Assembly (NCBI RefSeq): GCF_003334355.1
Contig: NZ_QOWP01000003.1
Reading direction: 5' to 3' (one strand)
DNA length: 64,000 nt
Source of the DNA: Escherichia coli
Lineage (GTDB): Bacteria; Pseudomonadota; Gammaproteobacteria; Enterobacterales; Enterobacteriaceae
The position numbers and the translations under genes were made by a program. Below are positions 27,470-27,523 of this stretch, one piece after another; position 1 is the stretch's first letter, and each line of letters opens with the position of its first letter. The notes below the pieces were generated by a model. It saw nothing but the letters and a program-made list of their open reading frames with translations, was not told where the DNA came from and did no database searches.

Positions 27470-27523
27470 TTCCCATAAACTCAGATCCTGCGTGAAGCAG
27501 CAGTAAATCTGAGTTTATGGGAA
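27470..27523. promoter_or_regulatory. Perfect 17-bp inverted repeat in melA-melR divergent control region
   Basis: TTCCCATAAACTCAGAT (27470-27486) and its exact reverse complement ATCTGAGTTTATGGGAA (27507-27523) separated by 20 bp; lies between the divergent melAB and melR starts where MelR and CRP are known to act. Confidence 0.45.

What the first reader, a model, noticed from the sequence alone, without database searches (positions are those of the whole stretch)
27470..27523. Perfect 17-bp inverted repeat with 20-bp spacer in the melA-melR divergent control region
TTCCCATAAACTCAGAT and its exact reverse complement flank a 20-bp spacer, within the 282-bp gap between melA and melR. Perfect long inverted repeats are unusual for AraC-family operators, which are often direct repeats. 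It may be a pair of MelR sites in inverted orientation, or the anchor of a DNA loop with the downstream GC-rich repeat.
Basis: partly seen in the sequence, partly recalled or inferred. Interest (0 to 1): 0.3.

Follow-up and report, generated by a model that had tools for sequence, protein, structure and literature searches.

The report
MelR sites 1 and 2 (known)
The inverted repeat is real, but it is the long-studied pair of identical 18-bp binding sites (site 1 and site 2) for the melibiose regulator MelR in E. coli K-12, with a weak CRP site in the 20-bp gap, so it is already explained.

Summary
The repeat is confirmed and is one base longer than reported. It is a perfect 18-bp inverted repeat, 27469-27486 and 27507-27524, with a 20-bp spacer. 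It is the longest perfect inverted repeat in the window, with about 6e-5 expected by chance. The region is base-for-base identical to E. coli K-12 MG1655. Anchoring on the published melR -10 hexamer CATAAT, the left arm centre falls exactly at -174.5 from the melR start, which is the published position of MelR site 2. The right arm is site 1, which carries the same consensus sequence. The spacer holds the published CRP1 site. A third MelR-like site at 27645-27662 matches published site R in position, orientation and the bases at positions 5 and 13. In 61 other species the two arms and the 20-bp spacing are conserved, but the spacer sequence is not. Perfect symmetry is confined to Escherichia and is broken in many E. 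coli strains. The arms co-vary partly because MelR residue 273 changes together with base 13. The second reading is wrong about the partner: the distant partner is site R, and the GC-rich element is a copy of a dispersed repeat. The finding is already known and of low interest.

The parts
27469..27486 (-). MelR binding site 2. The left arm reads ATCTGAGTTTATGGGAAT on the - strand. Its centre is -62.5 from the melAB start and -174.5 from the melR start.
   Evidence: Sequence. With the melR -10 CATAAT at 27640-27645 and +1 at 27652, the centre 27477.5 equals the published -174.5 for site 2 (PMC2377442). It is the top PWM hit at 30.6 bits and is conserved in 61 species.
27507..27524 (+). MelR binding site 1. 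The right arm reads ATCTGAGTTTATGGGAAT on the + strand. Its centre is -100.5 from the melAB start.
   Evidence: It has the same 18-bp sequence as site 2. [quoted passage not shown] PWM score 30.6 bits.
27486..27507 (.). CRP1, a weak 22-bp CRP site, TCCTGCGTGAAGCAGCAGTAAA. It fills the spacer and is centred at -81.5 from the melAB start.
   Evidence: The paper places CRP1 between MelR sites 1 and 2 and inactivates it at positions 7 and 16. In this register position 7 is G and position 16 is C, as in the CRP consensus, and 5 of 10 core bases match. The -81.5 figure follows from the arithmetic here and from my memory of Belyaeva 2000 and Wade 2001.
27645..27662 (+). MelR site R, TTCTGATATTCCAGGAAA. 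It overlaps the melR transcription start and is the distant partner of sites 2, 1 and 1' in autorepression.
   Evidence: It is the third-best PWM hit in the intergenic region at 7.9 bits on the + strand. [quoted passage not shown]
27527..27544 (.). MelR site 1' at its published position (-120.5, from memory). The orientation cannot be settled from sequence.
   Evidence: It matches the consensus at 12 of 18 positions only when read on the - strand. An alternative + strand register at 27538-27555 matches at 10 of 18. Neither scores positive with the PWM. AAAAGCAGAG is conserved across species. Occupancy of site 1' by MelR is published.
27449..27466 (.). MelR site 2' at its published position (-42.5, from memory). 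It is a weak site overlapping the melAB -35 region and is occupied only with melibiose.
   Evidence: It forms the outer part of the 42-nt imperfect inverted repeat. It gives no positive PWM score, in line with the paper's statement that MelR cannot occupy site 2' without melibiose.
27600..27621 (.). CRP2, the CRP site that activates the melR promoter. It is centred at -41.5 from the melR start.
   Evidence: The paper places a CRP site 41 bp upstream of the melR start. In that register AACCGTGCTCCCACTCGCAGTC matches 7 of 10 core bases, with G at position 7 and C at position 16.
27640..27652 (+). The melR promoter -10 hexamer CATAAT (27640-27645) and the inferred transcription start (27652).
   Evidence: The paper gives the melR -10 as 5' CATAAT 3'. 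CATAAT occurs only once in the gap. The +1 position is inferred from standard spacing and agrees with all the published distances.
27415..27427 (-). The inferred melAB transcription start (27415) and -10 hexamer CATGAT (27422-27427, - strand).
   Evidence: The paper states that the melR transcript starts 237 bp upstream of the melAB start, and 27652 - 237 = 27415. The hexamer was read.
27674..28582 (+). melR, an AraC-family regulator of 302 aa.
   Evidence: NCBIfam NF007693 MelR, 635.8 bits against a cut-off of 253.
26036..27391 (-). melA, alpha-galactosidase, the first gene of melAB.
   Evidence: NCBIfam NF011657, 735.9 bits. It is annotated melA in MG1655.

Best explanation
The two arms are MelR binding sites 2 and 1 of the E. 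coli K-12 melAB-melR divergent control region. They are two identical copies of the asymmetric 18-bp MelR consensus, ATCTGAGTTTATGGGAAT, facing opposite ways with their centres 38 bp apart. Each arm binds one MelR monomer through its two helix-turn-helix motifs. N222 contacts base pair 5 and R273 contacts base pair 13. The 20-bp gap holds a weak CRP site (CRP1). With melibiose, four MelR molecules (sites 1', 1, 2 and 2') plus one CRP dimer form the complex that activates melAB transcription leftward from 27415. Without melibiose, MelR occupies sites 2, 1, 1' and R but not 2'. Those upstream sites then reinforce MelR bound at site R (27645-27662) and repress the melR promoter. Shown here are the sequence, its coordinates relative to the published landmarks, its identity with K-12 and its conservation. 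Taken from the literature are the binding, the stoichiometry and the regulatory effects. Inferred are the exact transcription start positions in window coordinates.
For: The repeat exists and is far beyond chance. The flanking genes are melA/melB and melR. The 282-bp gap and 2.5 kb around it are identical to MG1655. PMC2377442 supplies the published landmarks. It describes five 18-bp MelR sites and says the consensus is found at sites 1 and 2. It puts CRP1 between sites 1 and 2, and site 2 at -174.5 from the melR start. It puts the melR start 237 bp from the melAB start, gives the melR -10 as CATAAT, and puts CRP2 41 bp upstream. It reports G at position 5 and non-consensus A at position 13 in site R, with R and site 2 in opposite orientations. 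Every one of these fits the window once +1 of melR is set at 27652. Comparative evidence from 61 melA-linked loci of other species supports a protein-binding role. Both arms are conserved at about 1.4-2.0 bits per position. The spacer is 20 bp in 57 loci and 21 bp in 4. The spacer sequence is not conserved, at 0.1-0.4 bits. In six loci MelR has S273 instead of R273. In those loci base 13 is A or C instead of G in 11 of 12 arms (Fisher p = 2e-6, though the six are probably one clade).
Against: Nothing found here contradicts it. There are four limits. MelR binding itself was not tested here and rests on the literature. The older primary papers (Webster 1989, Caswell 1992, Belyaeva 2000, Grainger 2003) are not in the held library. 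As a result the positions -62.5, -100.5, -81.5, -42.5 and -120.5 come from my arithmetic plus memory, and only -174.5 and the 237-bp distance are read from a held paper. Sites 1' and 2' cannot be recognised from sequence, since neither has a positive PWM score. CRP1 matches the CRP core at only 5 of 10 bases.
Confidence: 0.97

Rival explanations
1. The repeat works as a nucleic-acid structure, either a DNA cruciform or an RNA hairpin such as a terminator, attenuator or small RNA, and not as a set of protein-binding sites.
For: As a single strand it folds well, at -19.4 kcal/mol with z = -8. The arms co-vary above both controls, with 86% of cells paired and 11 pairs changed on both sides.
Against: The repeat lies upstream of both transcription starts (27415 leftward, 27652 rightward), so neither known transcript contains it. 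There is no T-run and no terminator-like site. Rfam returns only far-sub-threshold plant miRNA hairpin hits. Only 1 of 61 other species keeps perfect pairing, and typical loci have 2-4 mismatches in 18. E. coli B strains and about 1000 other genomes break the symmetry. The strongest covariation, at position 13, tracks a change in the MelR residue that contacts it. That is what two sites for one protein would show.
Confidence: 0.01
2. The repeat is a palindromic operator for a symmetric dimeric regulator other than MelR, for example a LacI/GalR-type repressor.
For: Perfect dyad symmetry is typical of such operators (inference only).
Against: The half-site centres are 38 bp apart, far beyond the reach of a single dimer. 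The element always accompanies a melR homologue, including paralogues that have no melA next to them. The published footprints assign the sites to MelR.
Confidence: 0.01
3. The arms are the terminal inverted repeats of a small mobile element (MITE-like) or a remnant of one.
For: Arms of 18 bp flanking a short core resemble miniature elements (inference only).
Against: There is one place per genome in 5400 of 5426 E. coli genomes, always at mel. No other strong copy occurs in the window. The element sits at the same position relative to melA and melR across Enterobacterales and Vibrionaceae.
Confidence: 0.005

Closest known systems
MelR sites 1 and 2 with the intervening CRP site at the E. coli K-12 melAB promoter (Busby laboratory; PMC2377442 and the references in it)
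   Same: The DNA is identical. The element also shows the same 18-bp consensus in both arms, opposite orientations, CRP1 between the arms, and the published distances to the melR -10, the melR start, CRP2 and site R.
   Different: Nothing differs. This is the same object.
AraC at araC-araBAD (I1-I2 direct repeats and O2, repression loop)
   Same: Both involve an AraC-family regulator in a divergent regulator/operon region. Both use asymmetric monomer sites of about 17-18 bp, depend on CRP, and autorepress through a distant site overlapping or near the regulator's promoter.
   Different: The AraC half-sites that act together are direct repeats, and the loop uses two molecules. Here the two strongest sites are inverted and 38 bp apart, with CRP between them. 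Repression needs four MelR molecules and was described as a compacted complex with no visible loop.
Palindromic operators of symmetric dimers (lacO, galO)
   Same: Both show perfect dyad symmetry in the sequence.
   Different: In those operators the half-sites abut and are bound by a single dimer. Here each arm is a complete, internally asymmetric site for one monomer, and another protein binds between the arms.

Membership tests
MelR operator sites 1 and 2 of the melAB-melR control region | The element lies in the divergent melR-melA intergenic region of E. coli K-12. | tested here: met
   The genes were identified, and the gap is identical to MG1655 4341629-4341910.
MelR operator sites 1 and 2 of the melAB-melR control region | Two copies of the same 18-bp consensus, with G at positions 5 and 13. 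| tested here: met
   Both arms read ATCTGAGTTTATGGGAAT, with G5 and G13. The paper says the consensus is found at sites 1 and 2 and that G is the consensus base at positions 5 and 13.
MelR operator sites 1 and 2 of the melAB-melR control region | Site 2 is centred at -174.5 from the melR transcription start. | tested here: met
   The unique CATAAT at 27640-27645 puts +1 at 27652, and the left-arm centre 27477.5 is then -174.5. The +1 position is inferred from standard -10 spacing.
MelR operator sites 1 and 2 of the melAB-melR control region | A CRP site lies between the two MelR sites. | tested here: met
   The 22-mer 27486-27507 has G7 and C16 and 5 of 10 core matches. This is weak, in line with what I recall of the published dependence on MelR.
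MelR operator sites 1 and 2 of the melAB-melR control region | MelR protein binds the sites (footprint or gel shift), and mutations in them affect melAB and melR expression. | not testable with these tools
   This is published for the identical K-12 sequence: DNase I footprints and deletions of site 2 and of sites 1/1'.
AraC-type direct-repeat operator (araI1-I2 style) | Two adjacent half-sites in the same orientation, bound by one dimer. | tested here: not met
   The arms are in opposite orientation and separated by 20 bp.
Intrinsic terminator or structured RNA | A transcribed hairpin followed by a T-run, or a match to an RNA family. | tested here: not met
   No terminator-like site was found. 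No Rfam hit comes near its threshold. The repeat lies upstream of both transcription starts.
Miniature mobile element with terminal inverted repeats | Several dispersed copies per genome. | tested here: not met
   The median is 1 place per E. coli genome.

The most novel reading that the evidence does not exclude
The element itself is not new, but the comparison across species points to two things I have not seen reported. First, the 20-bp spacing of the inverted site pair is held from Escherichia to Vibrio and Photobacterium, while the spacer sequence, including the CRP1 core, is not. The geometry may therefore be set by MelR-MelR contacts, and co-dependence on CRP bound between the sites may be particular to Escherichia. 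Second, a Buttiauxella/Cedecea group carries MelR S273 instead of R273, and in the same loci base 13 of both arms has shifted from G to A or C. This looks like a natural specificity switch at the contact that was mapped genetically in E. coli.
Probability: 0.4. Interest if true: 0.3.

Novelty: already known. Interest (0 to 1): 0.08.

Why it matters
It matters little as a discovery. The repeat is a textbook case of how an AraC-family activator and CRP cooperate at a complex promoter, and it has been dissected since 1989. The result is useful as a calibration point: a reader working from raw sequence found a real and functionally central operator pair and guessed its protein correctly. The comparative data add small points that could guide anyone working on MelR outside E. 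coli. The spacing is conserved but the spacer sequence is not. Perfect symmetry is dispensable. Residue 273 and base 13 change together.

Tried and rejected
1. I tried to read the older primary papers by PMC id: PMC125794, PMC146657, PMC1447455, PMC1138231, PMC1133192 and PMC306891. None are held. The supplementary file of PMC2377442 that contains the fragment sequences is not held either. One literature search failed for lack of capacity. A repeat search found no further paper with site details.

2. The sigma-70 promoter scan found no promoter-like site in the gap. This fits two weak, activator-dependent promoters but gives no independent check of the transcription starts.

3. The Rfam scan gave only meaningless sub-threshold miRNA hairpin matches.

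4. I tried to fix the register and orientation of sites 1' and 2' from sequence and conservation. The result was inconclusive. For site 1' there are two candidate registers, 27527-27544 on the - strand and 27538-27555 on the + strand, and site 2' has no positive score.

5. I considered the GC-rich repeat as a loop anchor and rejected it. It is a copy of a dispersed repeat and has no MelR-like sequence.

6. I tested whether CRP1 is conserved in the central register. The core matches average about 3.6 of 10 against 2.5 expected at random, and G7 with C16 occur together in 16 of 57 loci, so conservation is not evident.

Full report
**Observation.** The sequence at 27469-27524 reads ATTCCCATAAACTCAGAT, then the 20-bp spacer CCTGCGTGAAGCAGCAGTAA, then ATCTGAGTTTATGGGAAT. 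One further base pair (A27469/T27524) is also complementary, so the perfect arms are 18 bp. Weaker symmetry runs outward to 42-nt arms, 27445-27486 and 27507-27548, at 76% complementarity. This is the only perfect inverted repeat of 16 bp or more with a spacer of 60 bp or less in the 64-kb window. Sixty dinucleotide-preserving shuffles gave longest arms of 10-12 bp, once 15. The analytic expectation for 18 bp or more is 5.7e-5.

**Setting.** The flanking reading frames are melA (26036-27391, - strand), melB (24512-25957, - strand) and melR (27674-28582, + strand), with adiA beyond. All score far above the NCBIfam cut-offs. The 282-bp gap is present in 5399 of 5426 complete E. coli genomes. The gap, together with 2.5 kb around it, is identical to K-12 MG1655. 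The experimental literature on the K-12 mel regulatory region therefore applies to this DNA directly.

**Mapping onto the published architecture.** The one detailed paper held in the library is Samarasinghe et al. 2008 (PMC2377442). It gives these landmarks:
- MelR binds five 18-bp sites: 2', 2, 1, 1' and R.
- Site 2 is centred at -174.5 from the melR transcription start.
- The melR transcript starts 237 bp upstream of the melAB start.
- The melR -10 hexamer is CATAAT, and a second CRP site lies 41 bp upstream of the melR start.
- Site R overlaps that start, has the consensus G at position 5 and a non-consensus A at position 13, and is oriented opposite to site 2.

In the window CATAAT occurs once in the gap, at 27640-27645. 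With standard spacing this puts melR +1 at 27652. The centre of the left arm, 27477.5, is then exactly -174.5. The melAB start falls at 27415, which puts the two arms at -62.5 and -100.5 from it. I recall these as the published positions of sites 2 and 1.

The other landmarks also fit:
- The 22-mer that fills the spacer (27486-27507) has G at position 7 and C at position 16, the two positions the authors mutate to inactivate a CRP site. It matches 5 of 10 core bases, so it is a weak site.
- The 22-mer centred at -41.5 from the melR start (27600-27621) matches 7 of 10 core bases.
- A position weight matrix built from 114 orthologous arms finds the two arms at 30.6 bits each. Its next best hit in the gap is TTCTGATATTCCAGGAAA at 27645-27662 on the + strand, at 7.9 bits.
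- That hit has G at position 5 and A at position 13 and is oriented opposite to the left arm. This matches the published site R.

Every published landmark fits. The arms are MelR site 2 (left) and site 1 (right).

**Mechanism.** What follows is taken from the literature and marked as such. Each 18-bp site takes one MelR monomer, whose two helix-turn-helix motifs read adjacent major grooves. N222 contacts base pair 5 and R273 contacts base pair 13. [quoted passage not shown] Without melibiose, MelR fills sites 2, 1, 1' and R but not 2'. In that state it represses its own promoter, and the repression is weakened by deleting site 2 or replacing sites 1 and 1'. [quoted passage not shown] Atomic force microscopy showed compaction, not an open loop.

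It is a truncated copy of a dispersed repeat that has a fuller copy at 54575-54630 in the window and a median of 16 places per E. coli genome.

**Comparative evidence.** A scan of one genome per species with the MelR protein returned 80 loci. In 61 of them melA lies divergently upstream and a site pair could be scored.
- Both arms are conserved at about 1.4-2.0 bits at most positions, with consensus ATTCCCAAAAACTCAGAT on the + strand.
- The spacer is 20 bp in 57 loci and 21 bp in 4.
- The spacer sequence is essentially unconserved, at 0.1-0.4 bits.
- The CRP core in the central register averages about 3.6 of 10 matches, and G7 with C16 occur together in only 16 of 57 loci.
- Perfect 18/18 symmetry is found in only one other species, an Escherichia.

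Within E. coli, 2067 of 5400 genomes carry the exact 56 bp. B strains have G15T in site 1. About 1000 genomes carry a divergent allele with a change in site 2, a different spacer and a diverged 27540-27615 region. Selection therefore acts on each arm and on the spacing, not on complementarity.

**The structural rival.** Because the strand folds well and the arms co-vary above the controls, I tested whether the covariation has a protein explanation. It does, at least for the clearest column. Six loci encode MelR with S273 in place of R273. In exactly those loci base 13 is A or C instead of G in 11 of 12 arms, whereas 48 of 51 R273 loci have G in both arms (Fisher p = 2e-6). The six are probably one clade, so this counts as about one evolutionary event.

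The other points also go against a structural role:
- The repeat lies upstream of both transcription starts.
- There is no terminator-like site and no meaningful Rfam match.
- The repeat is single-copy in each genome.

A nucleic-acid structure, a foreign palindromic operator and a mobile-element remnant are all rejected.

**What remains unsettled.** Sites 1' and 2' cannot be placed from sequence alone. At the position I recall for site 1' (-120.5, 27527-27544), the consensus matches at 12 of 18 positions only on the - strand. A + strand register at 27538-27555 matches at 10 of 18 and carries the conserved GAG...GG pattern. Site 2' has no recognisable match, in line with its published weakness. 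The positions -42.5, -62.5, -81.5, -100.5 and -120.5 rest on my memory of Belyaeva 2000 and Grainger 2003 plus arithmetic. Those papers could not be read here.

**Verdict.** The object is already known in detail, so interest is low.

Noticed in passing
window 27566-27597; second copy at window 54575-54630 (- strand): The 'GC-rich repeat' between MelR site 1' and CRP2 (GTCCCCTCGCCCCTCTGGGAAGAGGGT, with a 6-bp stem CCCTCT/AGAGGG) is a truncated copy of a dispersed intergenic repeat. The fuller copy at 54575-54630 has a median of 16 places per E. coli genome. It resembles what I recall as the 'box C' repeat, but I did not verify that name.
   Followed up: partly
window 27487-27506 and 27540-27615; L001, L086, L087: E. 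coli carries two clearly different alleles of the mel intergenic region, and about 1000 of 5400 genomes are only 80-90% identical to the window. The differences are concentrated in the CRP1 spacer and in the stretch that contains the dispersed repeat. The MelR sites, CRP2 and both promoters are almost unchanged. In this allele site 2 reads ATATGAG... instead of ATCTGAG...
   Followed up: partly
L084 and L088 (T7Express, a B strain, and OkiPb01700), aligned to window 27521: Some E. coli lineages, including the B-derived laboratory strain, carry G15T in MelR site 1 (ATCTGAGTTTATGGTAAT). This breaks the perfect repeat. The effect on mel regulation is unknown.
   Followed up: no
L046, L048, L049, L050, L053, L055 (Buttiauxella, Cedecea and relatives): In these loci MelR has S273 and H269 where E. 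coli has R273 and R269. Base 13 of both operator arms is A or C instead of G. This looks like co-evolution of the regulator and its sites at the contact mapped genetically in E. coli.
   Followed up: partly
L040, L051, L052, L054, L056, L060-L068: These are second MelR-like genes that score above the MelR model cut-off but have no melA upstream. They still carry the same inverted site pair with a 20-bp spacer. In Superficieibacter (L056, L040) the divergent neighbour is a glycosidase-like protein of about 700 aa. In Citrobacter (checked in L062) the neighbours are a CigR-family gene and an NhaC-like antiporter gene. Cross-talk with the melAB operator seems possible.
   Followed up: partly
L043, L078, L083: In Citrobacter amalonaticus, Raoultella terrigena and Kluyvera sichuanensis the melA-melR gap is much longer (about 550 to 1380 bp). 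This suggests an insertion between the operator region and melR, or within the gap.
   Followed up: no
window 42880-42897 (+): This is the only other MelR-matrix hit above 12 bits in the 64-kb window (ATCTGAGTTTGTGAAAAA, 12.6 bits). It matches the first half-site only and is probably chance.
   Followed up: no
L053 (CACSKA010000008.1) and L003 (NZ_CP043487.1): A contig labelled Chryseobacterium sp. 18061 carries an Enterobacterales-type melA-melR locus, so the label is wrong or the assembly is contaminated. In the E. coli AQ15 assembly the mel region is a patchwork of short fragments of unrelated genes, which is probably an assembly artefact.
   Followed up: no
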